64,000 nt of DNA from Raillietiella orientalis. Lineage: Eukaryota. The stretch is from positions 1,612,001-1,676,000 of the forward strand of contig JAYWIR010000001.1 of NCBI GenBank assembly GCA_036172245.1. The letters run 5' to 3'. Below are positions 1 through 63,400 of this stretch, piece after piece (positions within the stretch are counted from its first letter, which is position 1; every line of letters starts with the position of its first letter). The notes beneath the pieces were generated by a model. The model made no database searches and was not told the origin of the DNA. It saw only the letters and a list, made by a program, of their open reading frames with translations. The translations under genes were made by a program, and so were the position numbers.

Positions 1-3000
1 GTCCGATTTAACGAACCTCGCTCAGGGTCGCGGCGACGGGAGCTCCTGCCTCGCCTCGGACGGTTCCGCCCCTCGCTCCTGTGTCACGGAGCCTCTCGGA
101 GCTTCCAGCCCGTGCCAACAGTCCCAGGGCGTTCAACTGACATCGCGTCCGCGCGGCTTGCCCTCCCTGGTTTCTGTGTCACCTGCTTCCCTCCCCCCCT
201 CTCCCTTGTCGACGTCTTTTCAACGCCCGCAGAACTCTTTTCTGGAACTCCCGGCCGGACGCCTCCACCGCTTAGCTGGTTCGGGGGGGGGGGCCTTCCG
301 CGCGTCCGTCCGTCGGCGAAAAATTGCGTCGTGCCGTCGGGCACCTGAACGACTGCAAAGCCGGGCATGTGATGACCTCCGGTTTTTCGTCATCAACAAA
401 GCCTGTCAAGCCGGGCCGACGAAACGGCGGAGAGAGGGAGAGCGAAAGAGGAAGAGGGGGAAGGAGGAAGAGAGGGAAGGGGGGGGGGGGGGAAGAAACA
501 AACAGTTTGTTCCTTTTGTGCGCCCCTGAATGCTGCAGTCCGTTCCTGACGTGGGCATCTTTTCTTGCAGAGCTGATCATTAATAATGCCTCCGTGTCTC
601 GATGCTACTGGAAGAAGGCTATCATTATCGTGTTTTGTGTGTTCGCTCTGCTGATCAGCGAAGCCGCTCATCCGGCTCAAGAAGTTCAAGACTGGGAGAA
701 GGGTTTCAAGAAGCCCCGCACTGGAGGGAATCCGCCACGACCGAGACACGCCACAGCAGGGAAGGGGTGAGGAGGAGTGGTTCGACCACAAACCGAGGAG
801 TCCAGAGCCACCTTTCCTTCCTGCAAGCTCAAGCGCTCCTTCGTGGACCAACGGGGCTTGCTCTTCCGTCACGCGCGCGCGCGTGCGCGCGCGTTTGGCA
901 CCCACGTAAGAGGGCGCGCGGTCTCCGCTGCCCACACGGGGTAAGCTAACGGCTACTCGGCTCGCCGGAATCCGGACGGAACGCCGCTAGAGGCTTCGAC
1001 AGGGCGTTGGCATTCGGACGGGGGCTGCGCCGCCTACTCCGGCGGTCTCCGGGACTCTTCCAGGACGTCCCAGAACGCCCTACGCGTGGGAGTGTTCCGA
1101 GGGATCGGAAACCTCCAGTCCGGAAAGCGAAACTGTGGGGTGGAAGGGCGGGGGGGGGGAAGAGAGAGGTTCTCGGTTTAAGACGCAGGGTTGCCAGAAG
1201 AGAAAGCGACCACTTTGTCGCACTTCGAGCAGCACGTTTCTTTCCTTTCTTGTTCCTGCAGAGAGAGATTTTCGAACTGCGCAGTCTCTCTCGCTCTCTT
1301 TTTCCGCCTTTAACGCTGAGGTTCCTCTGCATCTTCTGAAATACAGCTCTGCTGCACGAATGGCATGCAGAGAGATGTGAGGAGGCCACGCCGTTGGGAT
1401 TTACGAGCCACTCACAAATACCATCAATCTGAAATAAAGGCCAGATGTGCCGATATAAATTTCCAATAATGAGAAGACAAAGATTGATTGAGGACGTTTT
1501 ATTTTGATGAAGAGTAGGCAACCATCACTCATGATCTTCCTGAGCGAGGCCTGCTGATGCTGCTGGGCGATCCTCCGCGCCGAAAACGCGGAGGAGAGCG
1601 ACTCGTTAAGGCAACCGAGATGCCAAAGACGCATCCGAGGAAAGCGGCTGCGGTGTGCAGAGGGATGCTGCCTGCTGCATGTTTTCCATAGACGGCTCCG
1701 CAGCGACCGATTCCTCGAGGAGAGGCAGAGAGTATAAACAAGGCTGGCGACGGACTTCTGGTGGATTTTTGCCACCATGCTAATCCACATTAGAGAAGGT
1801 CGCTTGGATCAATGGTCAGCAGCAATCCTAATGGACCACCGTCCTTTCTGCGCAGTGAAGAAAAGGAATCGCTCCGTGAAGAGGGTTTTTTTTTTTGTGT
1901 TTTGTATCCCCGGGAGCCATCCTGTTCACAGGAAGCGCGCATCCGCTTCGGCCCTGACGGGAAAGGAGGCAGAGTCCCCTTGTTGTCCTTTTAAAAAAAT
2001 CTCTTCTCCGAGGGCGGACTCGCCTTTAATCTCGACCTTCGCTTTCATCTCCAGCCAGCGGAAAGCTGAGAATCAAGCAGAGCTCTGGAGCTTAAGACGA
2101 CTGTTCGAGAACGCATTAGCGGTGCCTGGCAACCTTCCGCCACCCGAACGGCGGGAGCGAAGCGCACGTGCTTCTTTCGCGGTTCACGGCGGCGTCTACG
2201 CCCGAACCACGCACGCTCCTCGATCCCTCAGGTTTACCACACGGGCGGCGGAACGCAGGAGAGGCGACCCCTTCCCCCTTCAGCCCGTCGAGGCTTCCAC
2301 GGGCGCTGCTGTTGGTGCGCGCTCAAAGGCGGCGTCTCCTAAAAGACACGGCTCGAGGCGGCAGCGTCGTCCCACCCCTGTCCATCCCCAACGGCGTCCC
2401 CCCCCCCCTTTGGAACCGATTGTTGAAAATTCATCGTTCTTCACCTGCGGACCGTTTCGTTCCCCTTAGAAGCCACGCCCTCTTCATTCCCTTCTAAAGA
2501 GTTCGTCCCAACAACCAGGCTGACGAATCCATAAAACTCGAAGACGACGACGCCGGAGCAGCTTTCGGAGCAGCTCGCCGGGCAGTTGCCGAGAGAGCTC
2601 GTAGCAACAGTCCATCAATTTCCGAAGTAAAGATCAACCAGAGCGGCAGAAACAACAATACAGGAAGAAAATCTCCGGGAAGAGGGAACACGGTTTCCAG
2701 CTTGTGTAAACACGGCTCGCTGCGTAAGAGTCCTTCGGGAAGCAGGCACCCCGAGGGGAGGGGGTCTTGTAAACAATGGAGCAGGACAGAAAGAGCCGTT
2801 CCGCTACCACTTCCTACGCGAATCGTAAACAGCGTCGTGGAGAGGGGAACCTGCTCGAGAGGATTCCGTTCCTCGGCTTCACTTCCAGGAACACAAACAC
2901 GGCGTTTCGTGGCGAGTCCTCCGGGCGAAGAGACCACACCGTCTTGCCGGGTTACAACTTGGCAGAAAGTCGATCCAAGCAGCTCCGCGTGCTTTGGAGA

Positions 3001-6000
3001 GGAGGTGACACTCTTGACGGGCGCGTGGCTACTACCACAAGAAGGGGGGGAGGGACGTCCCGAACAAGGGCAACACGAGTTATCGGCGCGGCTGCCGCCC
3101 ATTTCCCAACCGCTCTCACGGCTGGATGCCACGGACACCACGCTCCGGACGAGAGAGAGAGGAAGGGGAAAAGGGCCGTCGCGGGTTTGCCGGGGACTCT
3201 GGGCGTCGTCGGGGAAACCGTCTGGCTCCCCGGGACCCGGGAGTACTCGCGGAGAAGAACGGGTTGCAACGGGGGAGCGGCACGTTCTTCCAGGGATTTC
3301 CGCGGAGGAGAAGACCGGGGGTAAAAAGAACCTCATCGAACGGGAAATCTGGTGACCCTCTAACTGCCCCGACGAAACCTCCTGCGATACACTCGAGGCG
3401 GCTGCTTCCTACGGAAGAGCAGAGTGGTGTGGCTGCTCGGCTACTGATGGCGCTCGCTCGTGCCGCAACCTCCGAGACGACGAACGGAAGCAGAAGAGGT
3501 CGAAACCGCTTGGTCGTTCCCGCCGCCATTATTCTCGTTTTCTTTGAGACCTGCTGTTTCTTCTTTAAGGGTGACGAGGAAGAAGATGGAACGCAAGCAG
3601 TGGTCGGTCCAAGAGGAATGCGTTTGAGGAGATGCAGGGGGAGACGGTTCGTCACCATCTTAAGATGCTTGCGGAAGGCGCACGGCAAGCGACAGACGAG
3701 ACTTTAACGAAAAGAGTTCTTCTTCCCGTAATGACCAGGAAGGAGGCAGGTCGGTGCACACATTACGTGCGCACCTTCGCGCCCGGTCGCGGAGCCTTCT
3801 CTGGGGTGAGGAGGAAAGGGGGGAAGGGGACGTAAACGACAGAGCGCGGAAAGGGGCTGCACTTCAGGCTCTTCGGGATGCCCTGCTGCCATTTTCTTGG
3901 TGCCACTCGCATGTGCTTCCTAAGGGAGAAGGCGAGCTGGTTCGTTTCTCCGGTTCACCACGCAGAGAACTCGCGGGAAGTCTCGTTCTGCAAACGGGAA
4001 AGCAGGTCCATCGAGTTGATCGATGTCAGGGAAAAGTGCAGCGCATAGGGAGGGGACCCAACTCACTCAGATACTGTTTGTGGGACGGAGCGTTCTTTTA
4101 ACGACCACAGGGAACACTTTTTGACGCGTGCACGTCGGAGAGAACGGCGCTTGCGCGTGCTCGCACGCTGCTGCCGGAGGTGTGTCGAGTGAGCGCGAGC
4201 GGCGGTCCACTTTCCAAGTTGGCCCACGGATTCGGGCCCTTTGCGTTTCTGCGGACCACGGAGTTGTCAAAGAGAAAATGCTGAGAGGATGCCCAGGACC
4301 CGCGTTCGCCGACGAGATGATGACCAAAAAAGTGACATGCAAGGGTCACGTAGCGGGGACACACGCATCAAACGTCTCGAGGTCCAGATGGGCAGCTTTT
4401 TACTCTGGGCGCTGAAAAACCACGTTCCACGATCGATGTGTTTTTTTTCTTCCTCCAGAAAAATCGAAATAATAATAATAATCCCCCCTCCCCCCAAAAG
4501 GAAAAGGGGTTCGGGGTTGATTCCGTTCCTTGGCGCCCTCCCGCTACTACTGCGCCGGGATGGTGAGCGACTGACGCCCGGCGGCCGGCCTCCCAGCGAC
4601 AGCTGGGAAACGTTCTGTACTCGGAAAGTCTGTCTACCTGCGTGCCAGCACACGGACCGGCAGGCATTCCAAACATTTCCGCCCCCTTCCACAGCCAGAA
4701 TTTTTGGATGTCATCTCCGTCCTGAAGCCACGTGCTCCTCAAGACTTTTTTTTTCCATAGATCGGTTTACATGCAAACGCATACGCATGCGTGTGTACAT
4801 AGCGATATTCTATCTCGTGTCACGGTTACCTTGAGCATATGCACTGCACGTATTTTTTTTTCCTCCCTCCTGCTCCCTCGTTCCTGTGCCAGCACACACT
4901 CACGGCAATGCGATGCCTACTGCACGGGGGATCCGGGCACGGGCGACTGGGTGTCGCCAAGCTTGCGGGTGCCACGAGCACCTTCGCTCCGCATCGGCAT
5001 CCTAGCAACGGCATCCCCCGCGAGTAGGATTTCGCAAACCGGCAAAGTCGACATGCAATCGCAGCTTTCGTCTCGTTCAAGGCGGCATCACCACCGGATA
5101 GCTCTCGAGGGAGCAGCCAGGCGTCGGATGAATCCGAGCACCGTCTCCCCGCACGCACATGTTGTACGCCCCACGTTGCGCGGGATGGCGGCGGTGCTGG
5201 GAGAAGAACGAGGAGGACCTTCTTGAATTACTCGCCGCTCCTGTCTATCTTTCCTCTCGCTTCCTGATGCGCCTCTTCCTCCCCGTGCCCAGCGCGCTGA
5301 ACGCAGCAAAACCAAGCGACTTGGGTCCAACAAGCTCTTCGGTACAGACTTTTGGTTTGTTCTGTTTTCATCTTTCCTTCTTTTTTCTGATATTCACTTG
5401 CGAACAGGAAACGAGTTTTTTCCTTTTTCTTTTTTCGAAAAAGAGAGAGAGAGAGAGAGGAAAAAGGGTGGTGGTAAGAGAAGCGATTTCTTTCTCTTCT
5501 CTGAAAGAAGATGTCCAGATTCACCTTACGCAATTACGATTTAGTTCTGGGAAAAAAGAAAAAGAAAAAAAGGAAGGAAGGAAGAAAGAAGAAGAAGAAG
5601 AGGAAAAAAAACGGTTTGGATCCCTAGCGCGGGAACCGAAAAATGCTAGCAATGTCAAAACAAACCCTCGGCGATTATCAGTCCAAACCTTTTCAAGAGA
5701 AAATCGGGTACGCGACCGAGCAACGCTTTCATCGTCAGAGATGAAAGAAGTTTCTTCCGAAAGTCCTTTCAGAATGCTCAGCAGAAATACGAGAATCGCA
5801 TATTTTAACTCGAGGCTACGCATCGAGTACAATTTCGTTCCCTTTCATTATTTCGGTCCCAACGAGAAATACCGTTTCCACGGCTACGGCAGCAAACCAA
5901 AAACATCTTTCCTGTTTTGTTTCTGCTATTCCTCGTATTCATGACTTTAGGAAACCAATTTTCAATACTTTCGAAAAACATCTGGCGGCAACATATACGA

Positions 6001-9000
6001 TGACAAAATTACGTTTGCACGTTTTTTTCTTTTTCTTTCTTTCTTCTTTTTCTTCTTCCTCCTCCTTTTTTCCTTCTTCTTTCCCCCGACGTACCCTACA
6101 TTACATAAGCGCACGGCTAGTCGCACACGTCGCACTCCCGCTGGAGACGTTCCCTCACCAGCTCGCTTCGGCCAACAATGCTCCTTCGTTGTCAACGCAA
6201 CGGACGGCAGAAAAGAGGAAAAAGAGAGGAAACCACACAAAAAAATCGGTACCTGGTGCCTCGCGTAGAGCTAGGGAGCCATTCATCCCCCATCCCGGGA
6301 CGCAGAGAGTTTCCTCATCCCGAAAAGCGGGATCGCATGCGACTCGGCGCTGCGGATCCCTCCCTCCACCCCCCCCTCCGTCTTACAACAATCGTCCGTG
6401 TCGCGTCGGCGGGAAAACAAAACAGCGTGCTCTAGGCAACGGCGGTTCCGTAGGAAAGCAGGTGTACGCGCGCACACAACAAACAAACACAAGCAGGTAC
6501 TCGCGCGACGGCGTTACCCGGCAACGGAGCGAAAAACGGGAGAAGGCAACAATGAGATCGCGCGGGAGGGGACGGGGGGGGGGAGGGGGTTGTCACGTCG
6601 AACGGCGCGGCGTACGCAAACAACAAAAAAACAACGAACGCTTGGATGAAGACGGGAGGATGTTTTTTTTCCTCCTCTCTCTCTCTCTCTCGTTACGATC
6701 GCACACTGTGCGTGCGCACCTTTCGGCAAATCGATTTCCATTTCGGATCGTGATGACGGCAATCATCTTATTGCAAATGCAGATGGAGCGGGAAACTCCC
6801 ACAAAAGTTTGTCGCCCGTGCAAGCGTAGCGGACGCGCGGGAGCTCGGCGGCTTCGAACCGAAAGTTCGTCCGTATCTCACGCATCCCGCTTTCGGCGTT
6901 CCGTTGCGAAATCACTGGAAATCGCGCGCACGCCCGCGCGCAGTTGCCGCCGCCATCATTGTGTCTTCCCTCCCCACGTTTTTCCCCCCCTTCTCCTCCC
7001 CTCCCTTCTCTATCCGCAGGACAGGGGAGCGAAGCGGGAGGAGCTCTCCCTCCTTCTTTCCCCCTCTCCCCGCACATTGTTTCTCTCGTTCGGGACTGGG
7101 AATGCGGCACGAACGCGGGGGTCGCAAGGGCGGGCGCCCGGGAAAAGAGGGGCCGTCCGCGGAGCGGGAAATGGCCGCCTCTCCTCTTCCCGATGGCCCT
7201 CCGTCGGCGGCGCCGTGCAAGTCCTCCCGGCGCGGGGGCGGAGAGGCTGTGGCTCCTTGCGTGACGCCGCTTTCGTCCCGAACGGGAGGGCCTGCTGGAT
7301 CGTCGTCGGCCCTGCGCACCCGCGCACTCCTCGGTGCGGCAACCGGACGCACGCGGGGCTACGGGCAGACGAAACGGAGACGGGCGAAGGGGGCGTTTCG
7401 GCTCGCTTACGCGTTCCAAAATATGAGGACGGAATGCGCGTGCGCGCCTTTTGCGTTGTTGTTTTTTTCCTCTCTCTTCCTCTCTCTCGACGCGAGGAGG
7501 AGCGTTGCCGATGATCGGGGTGCGCTCTCTTCGTCGAGACCAAACAAAGAGGGAGGGGGGGGGGAGAAGGAAAGGAAAGGAAGAAAGAGAAAGGAGGGGG
7601 GGGGTTAGGAACACAAAGAAAAGACACGCGTTGACTGCTGCTTTGTTTGCTACGAAGAACGCGCGCTCGTCTTTCTCCGAGAAGGGGAGAGAGGAAAGAA
7701 AGGAAGCAGAAAAAAAAAAAAAAAAAGAAAAAGAAAGAAACATGGCGGAAGAGTCGGAGGGTCTTGTTTTGCTGCCGCTGTTGTGTTCCGCGCACACCTC
7801 GTCACGGGTTGCAGAAGCGTCGAGGGGAAGGACAGCAGGAGTAGTAGTGGAAGAGGAAGAGGCGGCAGCAGGAGGAGGGGTGAGCGAAGAAAGGAAAGCA
7901 GGCAGCAGAAATATCTTCTTCCCTTCTCTCCCCCCCCCCTCCCCCTCTCTCGCGTGCACGCAAACACCGCTTGCGCGGGAACATTCCAGCGCAGAGAAAC
8001 CCGTTACAGCATCATCGACGCCGCATAAAGGGGCCTCTGTCCGGGCTTTCAAGGTCAGCGGGCTTGTGACGTCTCTCTCTTTCCCTCTCTCCTCTGGCCG
8101 GCCTGCTTCTTTACCCGCTGCGCCCCCTCGTCCAACTAGGCAGGCATCGGCGCAGCAGAACGGCCGGAACTCCTCCCCGCCTCTCCTGCTCCCACGTGGC
8201 CGGTGGGGTCGTCGTCGTACTGGACGGGGGAGGCACCCCGTCCCTTCTTCCCATATCCCTCCTCCTGCCGCCGTGCGGGACGGAAGGGGGCCTTGCGAGG
8301 ACGGGCGAGCGGGGAACGCGAGCGAAGACCAGGCCCAGTGGAAACGGGGAGGAAACAATGACAACAACGGCGATGACGTAATCATGGTCATATAATAACG
8401 GTACTTGCAAAAAAATGACGAAAAAAAATAAAAAATAAAAACGGAATATAAAAAAAAACAAACAACGTCTGAAGTTACACCTGAGGTAAGAGGTAGATGG
8501 TGGTCAACGAGTTGTTCGGTCGAACGGTCTTTGTCTTTTTATGTCTTTCTTCTTCTTTGAAGGGGGGGGGGGGACGGGATTTTTCTTCTTCTCCTGCAAT
8601 ATGCCTCCCTCCCTCCTTGGTCCACACGCATCTCCGCCCTCCCGATGCGCGAGGGAGGGGATGGGAAGAAAGGGGAAGGATCCGACGGCGGCGGACGCTG
8701 GCTGCTGCTGCTGCCGCCGGCTTGTCGTCGTGGTCGTCGTCAACTACACACAGCACTTCGGAGGGGGTGAGGGAAAGACAGACAGAGAGGAGAAGGGGGT
8801 GGGGTGGGCAGGGAGAGGAGGTGGAGGAGGAAAGGGGTACAGTTGGGTTATCATCTTATTCTTCGTTCCATTCCTTATTCCCTAAGCTCATGAGCAAGTT
8901 ACATCACACGTAGCCCGCGGGAGGAGGTCCCCGAGGCAACGGCAGGGACGTGGGAGGAGGATCGGGGGAGACGGGACAGGGGCGTGGGAGAAGATGCGTC

Positions 9001-9052
9001 TGCTCCCCATCGTCGTGGAGGCGAGGGAAGAAATGATCTCTCCGTTCGGTTT

Positions 9053-11338
9053 TCATCTCACTGCAACGAGAAAACAGCGCGCTCACACGGGTTGTTCGGC
9101 AGAGAACGCGCGCAGAGGGTGGGGTGGGAGGGGGCAGAGGAAGGGGAAAAGGAGAAGACCCCCTCTCCCCCTTGCCCTTCCGCACACGCGCCCCTCCGCC
9201 TGCCCTTCACCCGCCGCCACCACTACCCCCTTTGACTCTCCGTCCCGTCTCCACTCACCTGAGGCTATCGAGGATCCGGTGGCCGCGTAGGTCGCGGGCA
9301 GGGCAGGGTTTCCTGCCGAGGGGAATTCAGGTACGTGGTTGCGTCCCGCGTCCGGGGGGCCGACGAAGACTTCCTGAGTGTACAGCGGTTCCTGACTATC
9401 CCTGGGAACGGAGTAGGCGGGCCGGCATGCGAACGGCGAGGGGAATCCCGACGGCCCGAGCTCCGCTAGAGGCACTGCTGGCTGGCATTTTCCTGAGGGA
9501 CCGGGACTGTAGGAGGTGGCCGCGGTGGGGAAATGGCGAGACGTGGCCGAGGGCGGGGTAGGCCTGCACAGGACGGCGGCGGCGGCAGGCCCCATGACGT
9601 GGTTGGGGTAGGACTCCTGGGGCGCGAGCACGGGCTGCTGGAAGACGCTGGACGATGCCGCGGACTGCTGCTGCTGCTGCCTGGAGGCTGCTGATACGGG
9701 AGCAGCAGTGTAAGCATGGAAGTAGGGAGGGTACGGTTGCTGCTGCTCGTCCTGGCGGGCCATCTGCACGGGAAGAGACTGTTGCTGCTGCTGCTGGACT
9801 GCTGCAGCAGCGGCGGCCGCCAACCCCGGTGTCAGGCCAGCGCATCGATCGCCGGCGCCCTGCCACAGGCCGTTGGCCCGCATGAGAGTCCCGCCGCCGC
9901 CGCCTCCGGCGTGGTGGTGGTGGTGGTGGTGCACGCCAGGGCTCCCTGCCAGCCCTTTGGAGCGCACAGGCTTCTCTTCGGCGGGCATCTGGCCGCTGGC
10001 GCGCGAGTTCTCCGCATTCTTGTGCGCCGTGGTGGTCAGGTGGCGGTTGAGGTGACCCTTGCGGATGAAGTGCTTGTTGCAGACGTCGCAGGTGAACGGG
10101 CGGGGCTTCTTGTCGCCCCCGCAGCCTTCCTTCCCTTCGGGAGGCAGGCCCGGGGCGCCTCCTTGGCTCCCGTACCGCTGAATACCCTCGGGAGGCGACG
10201 GCCGCGAAAGGGTCATCGGATTGCGGCCCGCGGCGGCGGCAGCGGCGGCTGCAGCCGCACCGTAGATTCCATCGCCGTAGCCCTGGGTCATCCAGTGGCC
10301 GTGTGGAGGAACCGTGCCTTCTGAGGAGGCGGTCTTCCCGTAGGGCGACTCGCAGCGGCTGAGCTTGGCGTAGGGCTCGCCACGGTCGAGCATGGGAGCC
10401 GCTGCCGCGGCAGCAGCGGCGGCAGCCGCTGCGGCTGCTGCTGCAGCGGCCGCGCCGTAGTTCTCGAAGAGAGAGGCAGCGTCCGTGTAGCTGGGAGGCG
10501 GGTAGCAGCCGAAGGGACCGACGTCTTCCTTGCCGCGGACGATAGGAGGGAAGTTCGCGGCCGCTGCGGCGGCTGCAGCTGCAGCAGCGGCCTGGTACCC
10601 CCAGAAGGGCTGGCCGTACTCGGCGGCAGGATTGCCGGCGTGCAGAGGGCCGTGGTACACGTGGAGGCGGTTCGTGTCCAGGTCGAGGATCTCCGAGGTT
10701 TCCTTGACGACCGCGTCGCTGTCGCCCAGTCCGCTGTCGTTGCTGGGCACGCTCGTCTCCGAAGACGCCGTCTCGCTGTTGTACTTCACTGAGGAGCAGG
10801 TCTCGTCGGCGACCTCGTCACTGCCTCCGCCGCCGCCGCTTCCGGCGGCGCCGCCCTGGCGGTCGCCCTCGTAGGCTCGGTAGCCGGATCCGCGGAAGGG
10901 TTCACCGTCTCCGTAGCTCCCAAATCCTTCCGCGTCCTTGCCAGCTGGGGAGGAGCTGTCGTGACTGAGAGGGACGTAGGGGGATAGGCGGTCCTGAGTA
11001 CCGGGAACGTAGGGGGACACGCGTTCCTGAGTAGGAGGAGGTATGTACGGCGAAGTCCTTTCCTGAGAGACGTACGGTGGGGTGCGGTTTTGGGGAAGGG
11101 TGGGGTACGCTCGTTCTTGGTGGTGGCCATGGCTGTAGGCGGGGGCGAAGAATTTCTTCGCGTCGGGATCGTCCGCCTCTCGCCCGTCAGCGAGGTCCGA
11201 CCTGCGGCCGGAAGCTCCCCAGCCGGTCGATTGGTTGTCCCTGTGGTACTGCAGGTGCACCTGCAGGGAGAGATCGCTCTCGAAGCACAGTCTGCAGTCC
11301 GTGCAGTAGCTCAGTTCCCGAGTCGCCGCGGCAGCCAT
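9053..11338 (-). CDS. zld: Zelda (vielfaltig)-like C2H2 zinc-finger protein; main coding exon 11338..9259, predicted intron 9258..9061, terminal mini-exon 9060..9053 (~695 aa; 751 aa if unspliced to the stop at 9083)
   Basis: Long ORF with GC-ending codons. Acceptor ctctctcgtgtgttgcag| (AG 11343-11342) lies directly before gtcATGg (11338). Finger CTDCRLCFESDLSLQVHLQYH at 11305..11243; acidic patch EILDLD at 10693..10676; HX5H (JAZ-type) finger CDVCNKHFIRKGHLNRHLTTTAH-KNA at 10090..10022, resembling Zelda ZF2 (recalled as GHLKRHYNTTLHKNA). Poly-A/Q/H tracts. Donor CAG|GTGAGT at 9259/9258 and acceptor gctgttttctcgttgcag| at 9061. The 3' structure is uncertain. Confidence 0.75.
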
Positions 11339-12005
11339 GACCTGCAACACACGAGAGAGGTCACGGTAGGGGATGCTGCCGTCGGAACGCGCGTCCCTGC
11401 GCCCGCGGAAGGGGTACGCAGGGTGTGTGCGCAAAGTTTCAGGAGGGAAAAAAAGGAGGAGACTCTCGTCGAGCGTACCCTGGGGGTGGGAGACCCCTCT
11501 GGCTGCACCTCTACCCTCGGAATGGGCTCGTTCTGAGTTGTGTTCGCCGGCCGAGCCAATCACGGCGACGCGCGCACGGAGGGACGCACGCACGCGTCGT
11601 TCTGCGTCCGCCGTGGCATCACCGGCCGGACGCGATGCCCAAAGGAAGGTGGGGGAAGGGGAGGAGGAGGCAAAGGGCTCGGACCCGCCCGGCGAGGAGA
11701 CAGGAGGGCTCTCCCGCGCACACCCCGTTGCTCGCGCACGAGCCCAGGCAAGAAGGAGCACACTCCCCGCGCGCGCGTACCGCTCGACCCCCTTCTCTGC
11801 GCCCGCTGCAGCTCGCGCCACTTGGGAGTATTTGCGGCCGAAACGCATTCTCTTCCTCGCCCGCTCCCTCGGAAGAGAGCGGACCGAGCTGCTCGACGGA
11901 GAGAGGCCGCCGCTGCCGAGAACATGTGGGCCGGATCCTCTCAGCTGCATTACTTTTTATCCGCGGCAGCGTCGAATCGATACATCGGGAGGGGGAGGGG
12001 TGGGG

Positions 12006-20127: not shown

Positions 20128-20885
20128 AAAACCAGGACGAAAAGGAGCCGTTCCTGCTCGCGTTTTGCTGTTCCCGTGCGCCCTCCCGTTCTTCCTCCGG
20201 GATGCTAAGATCAGCTCATCCTCTTGGCTGCTGGTTCATTTCGCATCTTGATGCCGCGATGCTGGGTGGCGAGTGGGACCGTCGACTGGACGACCACGCG
20301 AGTCGGTTGAGTCGCGACCAACTCGACGCTTTCAAATCCCCCCTCCCCCTGGCCCGTGCCCCCTTTCGAGATGGGGCCCTGTCCGGGAGCATCCAGATCT
20401 TAGGATGCGCTTCCCGAACGTTCTGCAAGAGGTCTCGAAGGTCGTCCTGACTTTCCGAAAGGAACGCCGCGTTCTCTTCGGCTGGTTTCACGCGCTCAAC
20501 TCCGCTTCCCGGCAGGATCAGGCCTCCGGGAAGCATGCTCCACCCCTTTGCTCCAATCCTTGCCGACCCTCGCGCACGTTGGCTTCCTCCAGCACGCGTG
20601 TGTGATGTGAAGAAGACCCGGAAGAATAAGGGAAAGCAAAGAAACCATTGGTATCGCTCGCTCCGCTGTGCTCTTGTGCCGATGGACAGCACGCAGCCAC
20701 CTCAGCAAGAAAAAGAGACCACCCGAAAAAGGCACCTGGGAACTGCTTCCGCGGTTCCTCCGAGAAGGGGAAGCTCGCGTGACGACGCACGTGGATCTGC
20801 AGACAGTTGGCCGCTCAGAAGATTTGACGGAACATTCGCGACGATGCAGCACAGGAATACACCGTGCCGTCGGTGATCCTTGCTC
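20128..20885 (+). repeat. Copy A of a 758-bp inverted repeat pair (partner 29575..30332)
   Basis: Reverse-complement match with no indel (coordinate sum stays 50460). ORF translations are identical except for one D/N change (20396 vs 30064). Confidence 0.95.
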
Positions 20886-27729: not shown

Positions 27730-29170
27730 AGCTGAACAGCCAGGAGGATCACGAAGCACCTCCTGCTCCCGAGGCGCCATCTTGACGAAGGCGCGTGTGT
27801 GCTTCTGCTGCTAAGGCAGGAGCACGGCCGCGTCCCCGCAGCTCTCCCTAGGGAGCGGAAAGAAGGGGTCCATTCGGTGACCCCTCGAGATCCGCGCCTC
27901 CTTCCGGGTTCGCTCCCGTGGCGACGAGAGGAAGGTCTGCTGATGAGTCGCAGATAAGCCTGTTCGGAAAGCTCCCCATGGCCTACGGGGAGTGCGCGGA
28001 AGTGGTCGCGCAAGCGGGCGGCCGAAAGGGAGGTGCCTGCTCGACTACCGGAGGCGATGGCCTCTCCTCCTTCACGCCTCCTCCCTGGCGCGAAGGTGAG
28101 ACGCTCGAACCGGGAAAGGTTTTCACCCGAAGGAGTTCATAAGGGTCCCATTTTCCCTGCCCCGACCTGGGGTGAAAACTCCCTTTCCCCGCCTTTGCCG
28201 GCCACAGACGGCCTCGGCCGTTCCCATGAGCAGTCACTTCCTTCCACCTCCTCTTCCTCCTCCTGCTCCCTTTTTCCTCTTCTTCTTCCTTCTCCTCCTC
28301 CTTCTCCAGGTCCGATGGTGAGAACGGAACGTTCCGTCGTTGCTCCTGCGCACGCCTCAGGCGCCCGTCCCGCGAAGAGGATGGGCACTCCGCCTTCGTT
28401 CTTCCCTTCCCTTTCTCCGAGCGCACCTCTTGTCTTCGCACGCCTATCACGCAGTCCAGGAGTTCTGATCATGTATGCTGGACTGGATGCTGAGCTTCCT
28501 GAGGCTGGGGTTCGAGACTCCGCGATGCCACCCGATAGCGGTGAGCGCATCTGATCTTCAGGGTTCCCTCTCTCGGTCCTTGGACCCAGAGACCCTGGAG
28601 ATTTGGCCCTGAAGCCCGTTCGATCTCCTCCCGGGCCTCCTGACAGCGTCGCGTCCGAAGCCCGCGGAAGTCGGGGTCTGGGCCTGCTTTCTTGCGCGCG
28701 CCCGCTGCCTCCGCGGCGGCCTCCGAGGATTTCGCCTGTCTTCGCTGCTGCCCTGACGCCCGTGCGCTCAAAGACATGGACGGATTCGCTTTGGTCCGTT
28801 GGCGCCACGGGCGAAGGAGCGCGACCTGCTGTTCTCCCGTGACTTTGGGAACCACGTGCCCATCGGCAGGGATAGAGGTGATGGATGCCGGGATGGGTGG
28901 GATCGAAGAACCGCATCGTATCTCCTGAACCACGTCCGGAGGCTGTTCGCGAGGAACCCTTCCGCCACGTCAGACCTCCGGGACCTCTCTGAGACTCGAA
29001 CGAATCCTCCTGCAACGGGGATGTTGGAAGGCAGGAAAGGCTCCGCCCTGGCTCGAGCGCCATCCATTCTCAGGGCTCGTCGCTCCAGCAGGCGAGTCCC
29101 TGTGCTGCATCTTCCCATGGCCACCGCTCTGCTGCCCGTAGCAAACAACGCCTTTCGCGGGATCTGGTGA
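27730..29170 (+). mobile_element. Ancient decayed LINE ORF2 relic (I/Jockey/R1-like)
   Basis: Ordered remnants across frames: LPRERKEG..RDPRLLPGS (~PxxWKxA..KDPxxPxSYRP), ISLFGKL, QAGGRKGGACST (~QxGFRxGRS), LEPGKVFTR (~LDxxKAFDRV), later DLLFSRDFGNHV and SSRRVPVLHLPMATALLPV (~RSTPxxxLxxExGxxPL). Confidence 0.4.
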
Positions 29171-29574
29171 GTGCCATCGCCGTGGGCGGGCTCTCCATGA
29201 ACCGACGTTTGGTTCATTCCACAGTGCCGGTTACGCTGACCAGCAGCCGGTCCGCTGGGAGACGTCCGCGGAAGCGGCAGTCTGGCAGACCTCTCGTCCA
29301 CTTAAGACTTGAGAACAGATCGAGGCCACTTCTCCCCCAAGGCCTCTTCTGATCATAGGCTTTACCGGATGAGACTCCCGCTTCGGCGAGCGCCGCCTAT
29401 CTCGAGTGGATCCGGGAAGGCTCAGGAGGAAGGAGTCCTCTCACGCATGGAAGGAAACCCCGGAGGGAACGCTCTCCCTGGCTGTCTCCGAAGGGAACCT
29501 CTCACTCATTCTCTCCGGAAGGATTCCCAGTTTGGGTGCGGGTCGCACCACTTTTCTTCCCCGAAGGGGACCCG

Positions 29575-30332
29575 GAGCGAGGATCACCGACGGCACGGTG
29601 TATTCCTGTGCTGCATCGTCGCGAATGTTCCGTCAAATCTTCTGAGCGGCCAACTGTCTGCAGATCCACGTGCGTCGTCACGCGAGCTTCCCCTTCTCGG
29701 AGGAACCGCGGAAGCAGTTCCCAGGTGCCTTTTTCGGGTGGTCTCTTTTTCTTGCTGAGGTGGCTGCGTGCTGTCCATCGGCACAAGAGCACAGCGGAGC
29801 GAGCGATACCAATGGTTTCTTTGCTTTCCCTTATTCTTCCGGGTCTTCTTCACATCACACACGCGTGCTGGAGGAAGCCAACGTGCGCGAGGGTCGGCAA
29901 GGATTGGAGCAAAGGGGTGGAGCATGCTTCCCGGAGGCCTGATCCTGCCGGGAAGCGGAGTTGAGCGCGTGAAACCAGCCGAAGAGAACGCGGCGTTCCT
30001 TTCGGAAAGTCAGGACGACCTTCGAGACCTCTTGCAGAACGTTCGGGAAGCGCATCCTAAGATTTGGATGCTCCCGGACAGGGCCCCATCTCGAAAGGGG
30101 GCACGGGCCAGGGGGAGGGGGGATTTGAAAGCGTCGAGTTGGTCGCGACTCAACCGACTCGCGTGGTCGTCCAGTCGACGGTCCCACTCGCCACCCAGCA
30201 TCGCGGCATCAAGATGCGAAATGAACCAGCAGCCAAGAGGATGAGCTGATCTTAGCATCCCGGAGGAAGAACGGGAGGGCGCACGGGAACAGCAAAACGC
30301 GAGCAGGAACGGCTCCTTTTCGTCCTGGTTTT
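29575..30332 (-). repeat. Copy B of the 758-bp inverted repeat pair (partner 20128..20885)
   Basis: See copy A. It abuts the 5' side of the L1/Tx1 relic. Confidence 0.95.
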
Positions 30333-30339
30333 TCCGTCC

Positions 30340-33300
30340 CCCCAAGGGAGGGGAGCGGCTCCATTTTCACAACCGGAGGGGAACCGCGAAGGGCTCTTTG
30401 ATTCCTGGAAGGACCCCAGAGGGTCAACTTCCAATAACGGTCAGTCAATGGGGACATCTGGCTTCCACCAGTGACGCGTTTTTCCGCGTCTCCCTTGCAC
30501 TGCCTACCTTCAGACTTCGGAGTTGCCACCCGGGTACTCCCGGGGCTTTTATTAAAAAACTCTACATCACGTGGTCAATAACACCGGACCTGTCGGGACG
30601 CTGGGATGCAGACCAGCGTAACTCTCCTCGGCAGTGAAAGGGGGTGGGGAGAAAACAAGAAGAAAAATAAAGGAACTTCGGAGAGGGTGTCCGTAACGAG
30701 CGGGGGTAACTATGCGCCCGCCGTTACAGCGGAACACCCAACATCCGGAAGCTGGCAGAATTCAAAGAGGGAGCCGAGAGGCAAGCCTGGCAATCCGAAT
30801 CGGCCAGCTTGCTGGACGACGAGGGCCGGGAACTCTCGGCTCCCGCGTAGGTGAGAGGAATCATCCGAAAGTTTTATTCCTTCCTGTACGCGAGAGCGCC
30901 TCCCGAGCGGGACATCGCGCGATTTCTGCTTCCGGAAGGCTCTCCAGCGATCGTAGAGGAGCAGAGAAGAAACCTCGATGAGCCGTTCGCGATGGGCGAG
31001 ATCATCACTGCCATCGGAAAGCTCAAGAGGCGTAAGGCTCCAGGGGAGCACGGCCTGCCTGCGGAGTTTTTCCAGTGCTTCGCGGCAGAGCTGACTCCCC
31101 CGGTACACGAATTGACCTTGCTGATACGCGAAACAGGCGACGTTCCCGCTTCGTTTCGCTCAGCAAAGGTACAGCTCCTTCCCAAAGGAGGAGACCTAAG
31201 GAGCATAAACAACTGGCGGCCGATTACCGTGGCCAACGCGGACATCAAGTTGCTACCGAAACTGTGGGCCGAGCAGCTGGGGCGGTGGCAGAAAGCTTCA
31301 TCAGTCCGGAGCAGTCGTATGCAGTTCCCGAGTGGAGCATGGACGCCAACCTGCTCTCCACTAGCACCTGGTTCGCATCTCAGAAGGAAAAGGAGATGAT
31401 GGGCAACCGGAATTCCGGAGCGTCCGTCGGCCAGGGGTGGGAAGGTCGGGTGGGAGTGGGAGCCCTTGCGGTCGCAGTCGACCTGCACAAGGCATTCGAC
31501 TGTGTTGACCAGGCGCTCCTTCTGGAGCTGCTGGAACGCCTGGGCTTTCCGGCCTCATTGTCGGCCTATCTGTGCTCCAGCTGGCGCCACGCGCTCATCA
31601 GCATCTCTTTCAGCGGGCAGACGGTGCATGGCGTGCCAGTGAGACGCGGTATACGGCAGCCTGAGACCCCTGCTCTTTAGCACCTATTTCGAATTGTGCT
31701 GAGTGCATACAGGGAGACTCTGTCTCCACCCGCGCATATGTCCCGGTACGCCTGCCGTCTCAGCAGACGCGGACGATCTTCTACTGCTACTCCGCATATC
31801 CAACCCAGGATGCGCACTCGACCATTTCTTCGAGCTGTTCAGTCGTAGGACGGGTCTGGTGGTGAACAAGGCGAAGTCGTGCGTGGTTCCCGTTGGTGCG
31901 TCGTGGGCAGAGTGGCCGGACTGGATCCGCCTGGGGATCCCCACGGGCTGGTACTTGAAGTACCTGGGTGTTTCGTTGGGGGACTTCTGCTCCTCAAAAT
32001 CCTGGTCCGGCCGTCTTCAGAAAGCACTGCAGGTGCTCGGCCCGTTCCAAAGAGGCAGCTTTTATCTGCCGGAGAGGGCCGCGGTGTGGAACACGTTTGT
32101 AGTCCCCCCCCTTCCGCCCTTTGCTTTTTGTTTGCCCGCCGCTATGCAGCATTAGAAAGCGGACGAAAAACCTCCTCCAGATCTCCCTATGGAGCAAAGA
32201 GAGGCCACGAATCCGCCTAAAGGACTTGTATGCTCCGCGCCGGGACGGTGGCCTAGGCCTTCTGACGCTGGAGCGAAAGGAGCTGCAGCTCCAGTTTCGA
32301 ACACCGATCCTCATGGAAAAATTATGGAGCACCACCTGGTGCCAACCTGCACGTCTCCTCGTCCAGCAAGCCACCGGCAGCGTGGGACTCGCATCCTTCC
32401 TTGCGCGCCGTCCATGCAGTCGCATCCACGGCGGACTGCTCCTGCGGCAGGTGGCCACTCTAAAGAATAAAAACGGATGGATCTCGTGCCGCCCCGCGAA
32501 CGGTAGTGCCTGGTTACAGGGAACCGTGTGCACGTGGGCGCGGATCCAGGAGCCAAGCGCGGAACAGGTGCGACGTTTTCTGTGCGCGCGTAAGAACAAC
32601 TGCACGCTCCGGGAGATCCTGGAAGATCCCGCGAAGAGTGCGTAGGCAAGCAGAATCTCCCTCGCCGCCACGCTGCCCTCCCTTAGGGAACACTTGGACA
32701 GCAGCCTTACGGTTAGTTGGGAGGAGGTTGCTGTGGAAATCTCTGGAAGGAGGAAAGGGCTGGGCGAGTGGACGACGGGCCAGCTCACCGACGCTGAGAC
32801 CCCGAGTACTTGACCTCATGGGCTTTTGCGCTGAGGCGTGCTAATGGGTATTCCGGAGGAAGACCTGTAGTGGACCCCGGTGCTCAGGAACACCCGCACC
32901 TGCACCCCTCAAAGTGGCATGAGTCAGCATTGATGCTGCTGCACTTGGACCTCCCGTACAACGCCAGCCGCCATCATTGGACACGGGGGTATGTGAACCC
33001 AAACTGTGCAAGGTGCGGGGAGCAGAAATCGATCCTGCACCTGTTTGTGAACTGTTGCCCTCTGGTTCCTTTGGGGACGCTTTGCTGCGACCCTTGGAAC
33101 CCCCGGCGGCAACGCCAGGGGAAGTCAGAACGACAAGGACGCCATCTATTCTGCTGTTTTCTTCATGAGGACAGCGTCAAGATGGCCCCATCTGGGAGTC
33201 TTGAAACAGGAACTTGCCGGCATCCTTGCAACGATATAGATGACACCCTCCAGCACACAGTGATCCCTTCCCGAACCACTCCCCCCTTTTTTGACTGTAT

Positions 33301-33340
33301 ATGTTTTTGTTTTATGTGTTTCTATTTGTTTGTCTCCCCT
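30340..33340 (+). mobile_element. Inactivated L1/Tx1-clade non-LTR retrotransposon (ORF2: RT plus C-terminal CCHC knuckle), 5'-truncated, with frameshifts and stops
   Basis: IIRKFYSFLY; KAPGEHGLPAEFF; VQLLPKGGDLRSINNWRPITVANADIKLL; ISPEQS; VDLHKAFDCVD; RRGIRQ; ADADD (YADD position); TGLVVNKAKS; LKYLGV; LYAPRRDGGLGL; CARCGEQKSILHLFVNC (33005..33055, CX2CX7HX4C); T-rich 3' region. The motifs are split over at least five ORF fragments. The 5' boundary is approximate. Confidence 0.88.
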
Positions 33341-33399
33341 TCCCCTGCGCTGCCGAGGCGACCCCACTGGCCTGCGTGCCAGATCCCTGCAGATTCATC

Positions 33400-33650
33400 T
33401 TCGTAGTTAAGAGTAACTTGGCAGGATCAAACGTCCTGCTACAGATGTGTCTGTTTATTTTGTAAGTAAAGCCCCGGCGTGACCGGTAGCAACCAGTGCC
33501 ACGCCCGAAGTCAGTATCGTCCTGCGGCGGGGACTCGAAACTCATGACGCACCCCTCGTTCTCGGCATTGATGCTTCTCCAGGCGGGATTCGAACCCGTG
33601 ACGCTTGGTACCACGAGCAGAGACCGCGGCCTCACGCCGCCAACGCGGGA
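33400..33650 (-). mobile_element. tRNA-derived SINE-like element / pseudo-tRNA with a duplicated T-arm (B-box) segment
   Basis: Minus strand from 33650: TGGCGGCGTGAGG (A-box-like) ... gcgtcacGGGTTCGAATCCCgcc (T-arm with B box), then a second degenerate copy gcgtcatgaGTTTCGAGTCCccgcc (~33550..33525). The D-arm and acceptor stem pair poorly, so this is not an intact tRNA. Confidence 0.55.
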
Positions 33651-40347: not shown

Positions 40348-41293
40348 CTTCTCGGAATTTCGAGTCTTTTCCTCCGTCCATGTCGAAGCCCAGGCGGGTC
40401 GGAGGTTCCCGGGCCGGGTGAGGACGCGCGCCGCCGCGGCCTTGGTTTCCGCGGGAAACCGTCGGCCGGACCCTGCCCCGACTGGCCGCAGGGGACGCAC
40501 CATCGGTCCTGCGCGGAGCTGGGCCGACGGCGCGACGGGATGCGCCTTCCGCGCGAGAGAACACGGGCTTCCCTTTTCGGGTGCTCTTCCAGCTTCATCC
40601 GGCCACCGCGGCTCGCATCCCGCCTTGCATCGGCCCCCGCGCGACGAGACAAACCGGAAGGCTTCCTGCGGAGGAAGGAGGGGCAGCGGACGGGACTTGC
40701 TTTCGCTTTCGCTTCGGAGGCGTCGCCTGCCGTCTCGTTCGCCCGGACCCACGAAGGACCCACGAAGGACCCACGATGGGCCGGCCGGCCGGCCGGTCCC
40801 GGCGGCGAACGGCGCGCACGACCGCGACGCTCCTTCTTCGGCTGACGGTGCAGCACGGCGGCTCTCGCGAGAAGCGGACACGCCCAACGCCTGACGTCCT
40901 CGTCGCGCTTCTTGCCACCATCCTTCCTCCGTCCACTCGCCGAAAGGGCGCGGGCGGAACGAGCGCGCGGCAGCGAGAACCTCGCTCGCGCCAACTGCCT
41001 TCCCGTCCGCGCACCGCCGCGTGGACCCGCACTGGACCGTGCAGTTGGACGGGCGAGAGGTCATCTGGAAGCCGTCGGTAGCGGGAAAGGATTCGACGCC
41101 CGTTCGAAGGCGGAGAAGGAGAGTGGGGCTCGGAGATTTGGGAGGTCCTCAACGCGTGGGCCTTCCGGCTGGGAGTCACCTCGCGCTGGCCAAAGAGGCG
41201 GTGTTCTGTTTCGTCTGTGCTGAGGATTGGAAACGAAAGTTGCTGCTGCTCCTTTGCGGAAGGGAGGAGGAGGAAGGAGGGAAAGGGAAGAGG
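40348..41293 (+). repeat. Copy A (946 bp) of a direct repeat pair (partner 50838..51772)
   Basis: Near-identical to copy B. Copy A has one extra 11-bp unit ggacccacgaa (40745..40776 array). Both copies fade into a purine-rich GA tail. Confidence 0.95.
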
Positions 41294-48264: not shown

Positions 48265-48975
48265 GTACGTATGTACGTATATATGTATGATATATATATA
48301 TATATATATTGTCGTTTCGTGTCCTATATCCCTGTATCCGTGTATATATCGAAACTATAGGGAGAGACTATATGTGTATGTATAATCTATCCATCTATCT
48401 ATATCTATATAGGCATCTTCAGATAGATAAATATATATATAGAGAGACTATATGTATAGTCTCTATCTCAATGTATAGGTGGTCTCTCTTTATATATATA
48501 CATATATATGAGAGAGAAAGAGATGATGTATATATATATATATATACGCATCTATAGATATATATATGTTTATATATATATATATATATATATAAAGAGA
48601 GACATCTATAGACAGATAGATACATAGAAACTATCTATCTATTTACAGATACATATCATATATGTATGTATATATATATATATATACATTGATGCATACA
48701 TATAATACATCTATGCCGTTTTCTATGTGATGTATATGTATGTATACATACACATACATCTATAGGTAGATAGATAGATAGCAGCTATGTATCTATCTAT
48801 GTATTTATAGATATGTATCTATATCTGTAGATATGTATGTCTCTCTATATTTATATATAGACCTCTATAGATACATAAATAAATAGATAGATGGAGACTA
48901 TATATATATATACATACATACATATAGTCTATGTATAGTCTCTCTATCTCCATCTATCCATCTATATATATAAGT
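48265..48975. repeat. AT-rich compound microsatellite (TA)n/(TAGA)n/(TATG)n
   Basis: Read directly from sequence. Confidence 0.9.
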
Positions 48976-62889: not shown

Positions 62890-63400
62890 GAAAGGCCATT
62901 AAAAATATGCTTATTATACATATTCACATATATATTTATATAAAGATTAATAATACAGGGATTAATGTATATTACAAAGATTATAATAAATAAATATGCA
63001 TGAAGGTTAGGATAACTAAACTTGCACCGTGATTTTGATATGTATTGACATATATATTTATACACATACGTATATATGTATGTGTACATATTTATTATGT
63101 TTATGTATGTATATATATATATATATATATAGATGAATATCTTTATATATATATTTATGCATGCATTTATATTACCTATAAACATTGATGTACACAATAA
63201 GCATGTATATTTATTTTTCATAATCTTTCATGTTCATATATATGTATATACATATCAACAAGATGATCAACAACTTATTAATTTTATTAATAAAATTTGT
63301 GTCGCTGGATCTTAATAAGCATACCTGTTCCAGTAATACTGCTCTCAATAACATATGTGCCAATTAGTGTGAATAACTGTGTATATAGAAAATACATTCA
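62890..63400. repeat. AT-rich low-complexity block with (TA)n runs
   Basis: Abrupt composition shift from GC-rich flanks, read directly from sequence. Confidence 0.8.

What the first reader, a model, noticed from the sequence alone, without database searches (positions are those of the whole stretch)
9053..11338. Zelda-like protein apparently lacking the C-terminal DNA-binding zinc-finger cluster
Seen in sequence: the N-terminal C2H2 finger, EILDLD patch and JAZ-type HX5H finger occur in Zelda order. The exon ends at a perfect donor (CAG|GTGAGT, phase 1). The nearest strong acceptor (9061) gives GTG AGA TGA, ending the protein at ~695 aa. Read-through stops at 9083, and a weaker acceptor at 8594 adds only ~39 low-complexity residues. 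I found no HTGEKP-type linker or tandem C2H2 coding sequence in the 9 kb downstream. Established knowledge: Zelda is a pancrustacean transcription factor (the zygotic genome activator in Drosophila) that binds CAGGTAG through four C-terminal fingers; Drosophila makes splice isoforms lacking most of that cluster, and ZF2 has been described as repressive. Inference: this could be a DNA-binding-less paralog or isoform (dominant-negative or RNA/protein-binding regulator), or a partial or ancestral Zelda architecture. The alternative is that the finger exon lies beyond the window's left edge.
Basis: partly seen in the sequence, partly recalled or inferred. Interest (0 to 1): 0.8.

Follow-up and report, generated by a model that had tools for sequence, protein, structure and literature searches.

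The report
Divergent zelda gene, finger exon unseen
This is the large first coding exon of a very divergent relative of the insect/crustacean embryo-activating factor Zelda; its DNA-binding finger exon is not in the 64 kb window, most likely because it lies past a long intron beyond the window's edge.

Summary
A 2,080-nt minus-strand exon (11338..9259) encodes an N-terminal C2H2 finger, an EILDLD patch and a JAZ-type finger in Zelda order. It ends in phase 1 at CAG|GTGAGT.

Whole-library HMMER finds real Zelda orthologues at E about 1e-6, one named "transcription factor Zelda" by NCBI. An 11-sequence alignment shows the defining residues invariant.

The four-finger DNA-binding cluster is absent from all 64 kb on both strands by regex, tblastn and a cluster HMM.

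That does not show a finger-less protein. Only 9.2 kb lies downstream, and it has no coding periodicity and no AATAAA/ATTAAA for 7 kb. The nearby acceptor is one of 19 equally good ones. Of 22 stored family proteins, 20 carry the cluster; the other two come from short contigs. Introns in this interval occur in other lineages.

Best reading, about 0.6: an ordinary but very divergent zelda with a long intron. One real oddity remains: the JAZ finger matches the family consensus at only 15/25 positions, below every other member.

The parts
9259..11338 (-). Large coding exon of a divergent zelda-family gene (693 codons + 1 nt, phase 1 at its 3' end), starting at the ATG
   Evidence: ORF and translation. 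GC3 0.77 against GC2 0.59. Whole-library hits to Zelda orthologues. Alignment A1.
11243..11305 (-). N-terminal C2H2 finger ('ZF-Novel' of Ribeiro et al. 2017): CTDCRLCFESDLSLQVHLQYH
   Evidence: Regex. C12, C15, H28, Y31 and H32 are invariant in A1. It matches the family consensus at 14/21 positions, within the family range of 11-19.
10676..10693 (-). Acidic patch EILDLD (residues 216-221)
   Evidence: I217-D221 are invariant in all 11 aligned sequences. The motif [DE]I[LW]DLD is described in PMC5515446.
10022..10090 (-). JAZ-type finger (ZnF2): CDVCNKHFIRKGHLNRHLTTTAH, unusually divergent
   Evidence: Pfam PF12171 scores 24.0 bits against a cut-off of 22.6. C417, C420, H433 and H439 are invariant. 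It matches the consensus at 15/25 positions, against 18-25 for the 10 distinct JAZ sequences of 33 carriers.
9253..9261 (-). Splice donor CAG|GTGAGT (exon/intron boundary between 9259 and 9258)
   Evidence: Sequence. Codon-position GC periodicity ends here.
9083..9258 (-). In-frame read-through tail of 58 codons to TGA at 9085-9083; judged intronic
   Evidence: Translation. GC1 0.76 exceeds GC3 0.68, the reverse of the exon pattern.
9053..9062 (-). Candidate acceptor (AG at 9062-9061) followed by TG AGA TGA; would end a 695-aa protein
   Evidence: Sequence. It is one of 19 sites of equal quality in 9.2 kb. There is no RNA evidence.
1..9052 (-). Downstream 9 kb without detectable coding sequence: putative intron (or, under the rival reading, 3' flank)
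   Evidence: No C2H2 finger. No tblastn hit of the finger cluster. Weak codon periodicity. No Pfam family in the 5 ORFs of this stretch that I scanned. First AATAAA/ATTAAA only at 2030 and 1503.

Best explanation
The locus is the 5' coding exon of a strongly diverged orthologue of zelda (zld/vielfaltig). Zelda is the pancrustacean zinc-finger pioneer factor that opens chromatin at CAGGTAG-type sites. The exon encodes the regulatory N-terminal two thirds of the protein: ZF-Novel, the acidic EILDLD patch, the JAZ-like inhibitory finger ZnF2, and about 250 residues of low-complexity Ala/Gln/His/Pro-rich linker of the kind that carries the activation domain in Drosophila. The transcript is spliced at the CAG|GTGAGT donor at 9259 (inferred). 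It continues in an exon, or exons, more than 9.2 kb downstream and outside the window. Those exons supply the rest of the linker and the four C2H2 fingers that bind DNA (inferred, not seen). The apparent lack of the DNA-binding cluster is therefore a window-edge effect.
For: Shown:
- Family membership of the N-terminal part. Whole-library phmmer gives E 1.6e-6 to P0093 over residues 10-232 and E 4.3e-6 to P0107. Cluster mate P0133 is named 'transcription factor Zelda isoform X2 [Onthophagus taurus]'. The finger ligands and ILDLD are invariant.
- Exon end. The frame stops being coding-like exactly at a 9/9 consensus donor. It stops in the middle of the disordered linker, about 250 aa after JAZ. 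In the orthologues the cluster starts some 130-510 aa after JAZ (finger positions).
- Family-wide presence of the cluster. Of 22 stored family proteins with the acidic patch or the JAZ motif, 20 carry four fingers after JAZ. The two that do not, P0085 and P0099, come from contigs of 1,607 and 2,463 nt. P0099 reads into intron-like sequence right after JAZ. P0085 shares its 90% cluster with a 571-aa protein, P0161; I did not check that protein's fingers.
- Introns in this interval. They exist in other lineages. In L021 the JAZ ORF ends 80 nt after the finger starts, and the finger-cluster ORF begins at least 1.7 kb downstream. L014 and L001 are also interrupted.
- No sign of a 3' end nearby. 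There is no AATAAA or ATTAAA on the gene strand between 9259 and 2030.
- A sparse genomic setting. The window is gene-poor and transposon-rich, with one gene in 64 kb, an LTR-like repeat pair, LINE remains and an rRNA fragment. That fits a genome with long introns (inference).
Against: - The finger exon was not seen.
- In 11 of 21 related metagenome loci the whole coding sequence, fingers included, is one uninterrupted ORF. Six of these are copies of one gene and some may be transcripts, but L006, L009, L011 and L013 are cut from 25-44 kb contigs. In Drosophila the main ORF is also unspliced (PMC5752043). An intron of more than 9 kb in the linker would therefore be unusual for the family.
- The JAZ finger is the most conserved part of the family, yet it is altered at 7 positions that are otherwise nearly invariant: W423H, T425I, S426R, K431N, Y434L, N435T and L438A. 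This hints at changed constraint.
- The absence of a poly(A) hexamer is weak evidence, because only about 1 is expected by chance in 7 kb of this composition (my estimate).
Confidence: 0.6

Rival explanations
1. A real finger-less Zelda-family protein. The main product ends shortly after the exon: 695 aa through the 197-nt intron to the acceptor whose AG ends at 9061, or 751 aa by intron retention. Without the DNA-binding cluster it would act through its acidic patch, its remodelled JAZ finger and its low-complexity region. It could be a competitor for Zelda cofactors (dominant-negative) or an RNA- or protein-binding regulator. It would be either a paralogue beside a canonical zelda or the lineage's only copy.
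For: - The cluster is absent from 64 kb.
- A usable acceptor with an in-frame stop lies 197 nt after the donor.
- The JAZ finger is more divergent than in any other family member while ZF-Novel is not, as expected after a change of function.
- The family's usual single-ORF structure makes a simple long intron less expected.
- A truncated Drosophila isoform is dominant-negative in cell culture (PMC5752043).
Against: - There is no RNA evidence.
- The acceptor is one of 19 equally good sites in 9.2 kb, about one per 480 nt, so one within 200 nt is unremarkable.
- No AATAAA or ATTAAA occurs for 7 kb.
- No natural finger-less member was found among 22 family proteins or 21 loci; all short forms are cut by contig ends.
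- The Drosophila truncated isoform is not detectably translated and is dispensable.
Confidence: 0.2
2. A broken or misassembled copy. The gene was cut off from its 3' part by a recent rearrangement or transposon insertion, or by an assembly error. What remains is a still-open but functionless fragment, or an artefact.
For: - The region carries near-identical long repeats: 758 nt inverted at 99.7% and 946 nt direct at 98.5%. It also carries LINE remains. Rearrangement or assembly collapse is therefore plausible nearby.
- The JAZ divergence could reflect relaxed constraint.
Against: - The 693-codon frame is intact with strong GC3 bias.
- All eight zinc ligands and ILDLD are kept.
- The break coincides with a perfect splice donor rather than a repeat boundary.
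- No repeat copy lies within 1-12,000.
- The window holds no N.
Confidence: 0.15
3. Not a Zelda relative at all: an unrelated low-complexity protein with two chance C2H2 fingers.
For: - Overall identity to the orthologues is only 21-26%.
- Most of the 320 hits are generic multi-finger proteins matching the JAZ finger.
Against: - Three independent motifs occur in the family's order and spacing.
- Whole-library E-values of about 1e-6 for the N-terminal 220 residues alone go to proteins that are Zelda by every criterion.
- The metagenome scan seeded on GHLKRHYN and the acidic patch returned 21 confirmed relatives.
Confidence: 0.03

Closest known systems
Zelda (zld / vielfaltig), Pancrustacea-specific zinc-finger pioneer factor, architecture as defined by Ribeiro et al. 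2017 (PMC5515446; passages read)
   Same: ZF-Novel at the extreme N-terminus, the [DE]I[LW]DLD acidic patch, a JAZ-type finger preceded by a basic K/R-P-K/R stretch, a His run after JAZ, and a long disordered linker. ZF1 is absent, as the paper reports for non-insect pancrustaceans.
   Different: The C-terminal four-finger cluster was not found in the window. The JAZ finger differs at 7 nearly invariant positions. RYHPY is reduced to GYRAY. The gene has very high GC and long poly-Ala runs.
Drosophila zld-RD / ZLD-PD truncated splice isoform (Hamm et al. 2017, PMC5752043; passages read)
   Same: A donor inside or at the end of the large ORF leads to a short alternative ending that removes DNA-binding fingers. 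Such a product is dominant-negative in cell culture.
   Different: ZLD-PD keeps one of the four fingers and arises beside a full-length unspliced ORF at the same locus. Here no finger-encoding continuation exists within 9.2 kb. The fly isoform is not detectably translated and is dispensable.
Truncated database predictions P0085 (359 aa) and P0099 (483 aa)
   Same: ZF-Novel, acidic patch and JAZ without the C-terminal cluster, the same apparent architecture as this window.
   Different: Both come from contigs of 1.6-2.5 kb and end at a contig end or in intron read-through. P0085 shares its 90% cluster with the 571-aa P0161.

Membership tests
Zelda (zld) | N-terminal C2H2 finger (ZF-Novel) ending in H-x2-YH | tested here: met
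   CTDC...HLQYH at residues 12-32. C12, C15, H28, Y31 and H32 are invariant in the 11-sequence alignment. 14/21 positions match the consensus, within the family range of 11-19.
Zelda (zld) | RYHPY motif between the two N-terminal fingers | tested here: inconclusive
   The aligned segment reads GYRAY. R149 is invariant and Y153 is nearly invariant, but H and P are lost.
Zelda (zld) | Second N-terminal C2H2 finger (ZF1) | tested here: not met
   No C2H2 lies between residues 33 and 416. The feature is also absent in family members P0064 and P0101. PMC5515446 reports it as absent or degenerate in non-insect pancrustaceans, so it does not define the whole family.
Zelda (zld) | Acidic patch [DE]I[LW]DLD | tested here: met
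   EILDLD at residues 216-221. ILDLD is invariant in 11 of 11 sequences.
Zelda (zld) | JAZ-type finger (ZnF2), C-x2-C-x12-H-x5-H | tested here: met
   Pfam PF12171 scores 24.0 bits against a cut-off of 22.6, and the ligands are invariant. However, only 15/25 positions match the family consensus, below all 10 distinct family sequences at 18-25.
Zelda (zld) | C-terminal cluster of four C2H2 fingers (the DNA-binding domain) | tested here: inconclusive
   Absent from all 64 kb on both strands. The regex finds only the two N-terminal fingers. tblastn of 7 orthologues gives only cross-matches to JAZ. A cluster HMM against 1,338 six-frame segments gives a next-best E of 0.48. Only 9.2 kb lies downstream of the donor and no genome is held, so presence in the gene cannot be decided.
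Zelda (zld) | Binding to CAGGTAG (TAGteam) sites and pioneer activity | not testable with these tools
   Needs protein or DNA-binding assays or ChIP. It also depends on the unseen finger cluster.
Zelda (zld) | Host is a pancrustacean | not testable with these tools
   The organism is unknown: no genome is held and there is no close protein relative. The only transposon hit is an unnamed JGI protein.

The most novel reading that the evidence does not exclude
In a GC-rich, poorly sampled arthropod lineage, a Zelda-family gene has lost its DNA-binding four-finger cluster and remodelled its otherwise almost invariant JAZ finger. The resulting protein of about 695 aa no longer binds TAGteam DNA. 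It keeps the acidic patch and the low-complexity region, and it acts as a modulator of genome activation by cofactor competition or RNA binding. It could instead represent a pre-fusion, ancestral Zelda architecture.
Probability: 0.15. Interest if true: 0.7.

Novelty: new member of a known kind. Interest (0 to 1): 0.3.

Why it matters
Zelda is the model pioneer factor for zygotic genome activation, and the roles of its conserved N-terminal domains are still poorly understood. If this is simply a divergent orthologue with a long intron, its value is modest. It extends the family to a lineage with no close relative in 1.84 billion representative proteins, and it shows that even the JAZ finger, otherwise nearly invariant, can change. 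If the finger-less reading were true, it would be a natural separation-of-function allele of a pioneer factor and a direct handle on what the N-terminal domains do without DNA binding.

Tried and rejected
- Own genome: none is held, so the scaffold to the left could not be read.
The small share may be no more than GCN/CAG repeat words, and I draw nothing from it.
- The search for homologous proteins with the whole exon: swamped by low-complexity words, with 2 weak hits among 8,000 scored candidates. It was superseded by the word-free search.
- Closer relatives to compare gene structure: 0 proteins at E<=1e-30. The metagenome scan returned 21 relatives, all distant.
- Naming the organism. Rfam found only an LSU rRNA fragment. 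Pfam found nothing in the 10 ORFs. The RT-like ORF hit one unnamed JGI protein at 58% identity. The organism was not identified.
- Earlier findings of this scan: nothing on this genome or on look-alikes.
- Literature. Search (zelda, Pancrustacea, zinc finger, JAZ): 6 papers held all four terms and 4 were listed. Search (Zelda, splice isoform, dominant negative, zinc fingers): 50 papers held at least 3 of the 4 terms and 10 were listed. Search (zelda, crustacean, ortholog, zinc finger, zygotic genome activation; 2018 onward): 65 papers held at least 4 of the 5 terms and 15 were listed. In the listings and in the passages I read I saw no natural finger-less Zelda orthologue reported outside the Drosophila isoforms. 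I read passages only. The S1 Table of PMC5515446, which lists the crustacean orthologues, could not be opened and may bear on this.
- Considered and rejected: a continuation at the acceptor ending at 8594 (39 low-complexity residues, no periodicity), and any of the other open frames after acceptor-like sites (none has fingers or a coding-like composition).

Full report
**What is there**

On the minus strand an open frame runs from 11956 to the TGA at 9085-9083, 957 codons. From the ATG at 11338 it reads MAAAATRELSYCTDCRLCFESDLSLQVHLQYH....

A six-frame regex scan of the whole window (64,000 bases, no N) finds exactly two canonical C2H2 fingers, and both lie in this frame. One is at 11243-11305. 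The other is at 10022-10090 and has the HX5H spacing. Pfam calls the second finger zf-C2H2_jaz, at 24.0 bits against a cut-off of 22.6, E 4.5e-5. The first finger stays below every cut-off. EILDLD lies between them at residues 216-221.

The rest of the exon is low-complexity: four poly-Ala runs, a His7 run just after JAZ, Gln runs and a Pro/Ser-rich tail.

The exon ends ...GCC TCA G|GTGAGTGG, with its last base at 9259. Its 2,080 nt make 693 codons plus one base.
- the acceptor whose AG ends at 9061, giving V-R-stop;
- the read-through stop at 9083;
- the 39-residue tail after the acceptor ending at 8594.

**Is it a gene, and which one?**

The frame is far too long to be open by chance at this composition (my estimate, about 1e-10). 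It shows coding periodicity: GC1/2/3 are 0.69/0.59/0.77, with windows up to 0.88 at the third position. That periodicity disappears right after the donor. The read-through tail has GC1 above GC3, and the windows from 9100 down to 1 show a spread of at most 0.16.

A word-free phmmer search of 1.84 billion representatives gave 320 hits at E<=1e-3 and none at E<=1e-30. Most are generic multi-finger proteins hitting the JAZ finger. A subset matches over the N-terminus or around JAZ with few stretches: P0093 (E 1.6e-6 over residues 10-232), P0107, P0062, P0064, P0101, P0116, P0124, P0133, P0149 and P0003. Their sequences show the complete Zelda architecture. NCBI names P0133 and its cluster mate 'transcription factor Zelda isoform X2/X1 [Onthophagus taurus]'.

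In the 11-sequence alignment A1 the following are invariant: the ligands of both fingers, Y31 and N35 after ZF-Novel, W40, ILDLD, and the N421, K422, F424, G428, H429, L430, R432, T436, T437 and N441 core of JAZ. ZF1 is missing, as in P0064 and P0101. Ribeiro et al. describe the same for non-insect pancrustaceans (PMC5515446, passages).

I therefore file the exon as a Zelda-family member, though a very distant one. Identity is 21-26% overall. Similarity is confined to the three motifs and is about equal to all members.

**Is the DNA-binding cluster really missing?**

From the window, yes.
- tblastn of seven orthologues finds their C-terminal clusters only as cross-matches to the JAZ finger.
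- A relaxed finger regex adds nothing credible.
- An HMM built from the four-finger block of the ten orthologues, run against 1,338 six-frame segments, scores only the Zelda exon itself (E 2.7e-5, on JAZ). The next best is E 0.48.
- In the surroundings I scanned ten ORFs, none with a Pfam family: five in the 9 kb downstream, four antisense or overlapping ORFs, and the in-frame stretch upstream of the ATG. One more downstream ORF was in the equally negative set.

From the gene, this cannot be decided. Only 9.2 kb lies beyond the donor and no genome is held.

**Weighing the readings**

For an ordinary zelda with a long intron:
- The coding signal stops exactly at a full-consensus donor, in the middle of the disordered linker about 250 residues after JAZ. 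In the orthologues the cluster starts some 130-510 residues after JAZ.
- Of 22 stored family proteins carrying the acidic patch or the JAZ motif, 20 have the four fingers.
- The two exceptions come from contigs of 1,607 and 2,463 nt. P0099 runs into intron-like sequence right after JAZ. P0085 shares its cluster with a 571-aa protein.
- Among 21 relatives fetched from metagenome contigs (118 pattern matches, 21 confirmed), seven are cut by contig ends and three are interrupted between or within the domains. The interrupted ones are L021, with at least 1.7 kb between the JAZ ORF and the finger ORF, plus L014 and L001. Introns in this interval therefore do occur.
- The proposed short ending has no special support. 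With the same criteria (YAG and at least 72% pyrimidines) there are 19 acceptor-like sites in the 9.2 kb, so one within 200 nt is expected about a third of the time (the fraction is my estimate).
- No AATAAA or ATTAAA lies on the gene strand until 2030.
- The window otherwise holds only repeats and transposon remains, the setting of a large genome with long introns (inference).

Against it:
- In 11 of the 21 loci the whole coding sequence is a single ORF including the fingers. These are not 11 independent cases. L006, L008, L009, L010, L011 and L013 are copies of one 1,119-codon gene, and short contigs may be transcripts. But four of them are cut from 25-44 kb contigs and are certainly genomic.
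- The Drosophila main ORF is likewise unspliced (PMC5752043).
- The JAZ finger is odd. The block C-x2-C-N/D-K-W-F-T-S-S-G-H-L-K-R-H-Y-N-T-T-L-H-K-N is almost unchanged across 33 carriers, which give 10 distinct sequences with 18-25 of 25 consensus positions. Here only 15 of 25 positions match, with seven replacements at nearly invariant sites. ZF-Novel is ordinary for the family at 14/21, within the range 11-19.
- That asymmetry is what a change of function or relaxed constraint would produce. It could also reflect a long, GC-biased branch.

**Verdict**

I put about 0.6 on a normal but highly diverged zelda whose finger exon lies outside the window. I put about 0.2 on a truly finger-less product, about 0.15 on a broken or misassembled copy, and a few percent on a non-Zelda protein.

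**How it would work**

Under the main reading the exon supplies the regulatory part of a pioneer factor.
- The acidic patch was proposed to contact histones (PMC5515446).
- The JAZ-like ZnF2 restrains activation in Drosophila (PMC5752043).
- The low-complexity region carries activation.
- DNA recognition comes from the unseen four fingers.

All of this is inferred from family membership; nothing functional was tested.

Under the rival reading the protein would lack DNA binding and could only act through partners. The Drosophila precedent is weak. The truncated ZLD isoform is dominant-negative in cell culture, but it is not detectably translated and is dispensable in vivo.

**Novelty**

This is a new, very divergent member of a known family, seen incompletely. 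The finger-less architecture is not established.

Noticed in passing
window 10022-10090 (-): The JAZ finger differs from the family at seven otherwise nearly invariant positions: W423H, T425I, S426R, K431N, Y434L, N435T and L438A. It matches the consensus at 15/25, against 18-25 in 33 other carriers. The N-terminal finger is within the family's range.
   Followed up: partly
window 40348-41293 and 50838-51772: A direct repeat pair of 946 nt at 98.5% identity, about 10.5 kb apart. It looks like the LTRs of a retrotransposon.
   Followed up: no
window 20128-20885 and 29575-30332: An inverted repeat pair of 758 nt at 99.7-100% identity, with 8.7 kb between the arms. It could be a mobile element, a recent inverted duplication or an assembly artefact.
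   Followed up: no
window 29005-29390 (-): An isolated fragment of eukaryotic large-subunit rRNA (Rfam RF02543, 69 bits, model positions 967-1380). It lies beside one arm of the inverted repeat and near decayed LINE-like ORFs.
   Followed up: no
window 30851-33403 (+): A chain of frame-shifted ORFs with reverse-transcriptase-like motifs. ORF 31703-32152 matches one unnamed 619-aa RVT_1 protein at 58% identity (E 4e-45). Pfam itself found nothing at E<=0.01 in the four ORFs tested.
   Followed up: partly
window 48290-48974 and 63026-63181: AT-rich (TA)n/(TATC)n-like simple-repeat blocks that stand out in an otherwise 55-68% GC window.
   Followed up: no
P0009 (619 aa, Henosepilachna vigintioctopunctata): A Zelda-like beetle protein with three tandem copies of an approximately 83-residue unit containing the JAZ finger, followed by the four-finger cluster. 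This is an unusual internal triplication within the family.
   Followed up: no
L021 8406-8522 and P0099 C-terminus: In one lineage an intron sits immediately after ...TTLHK of the JAZ finger. Gene predictions that read through it give falsely finger-less Zelda proteins.
   Followed up: partly
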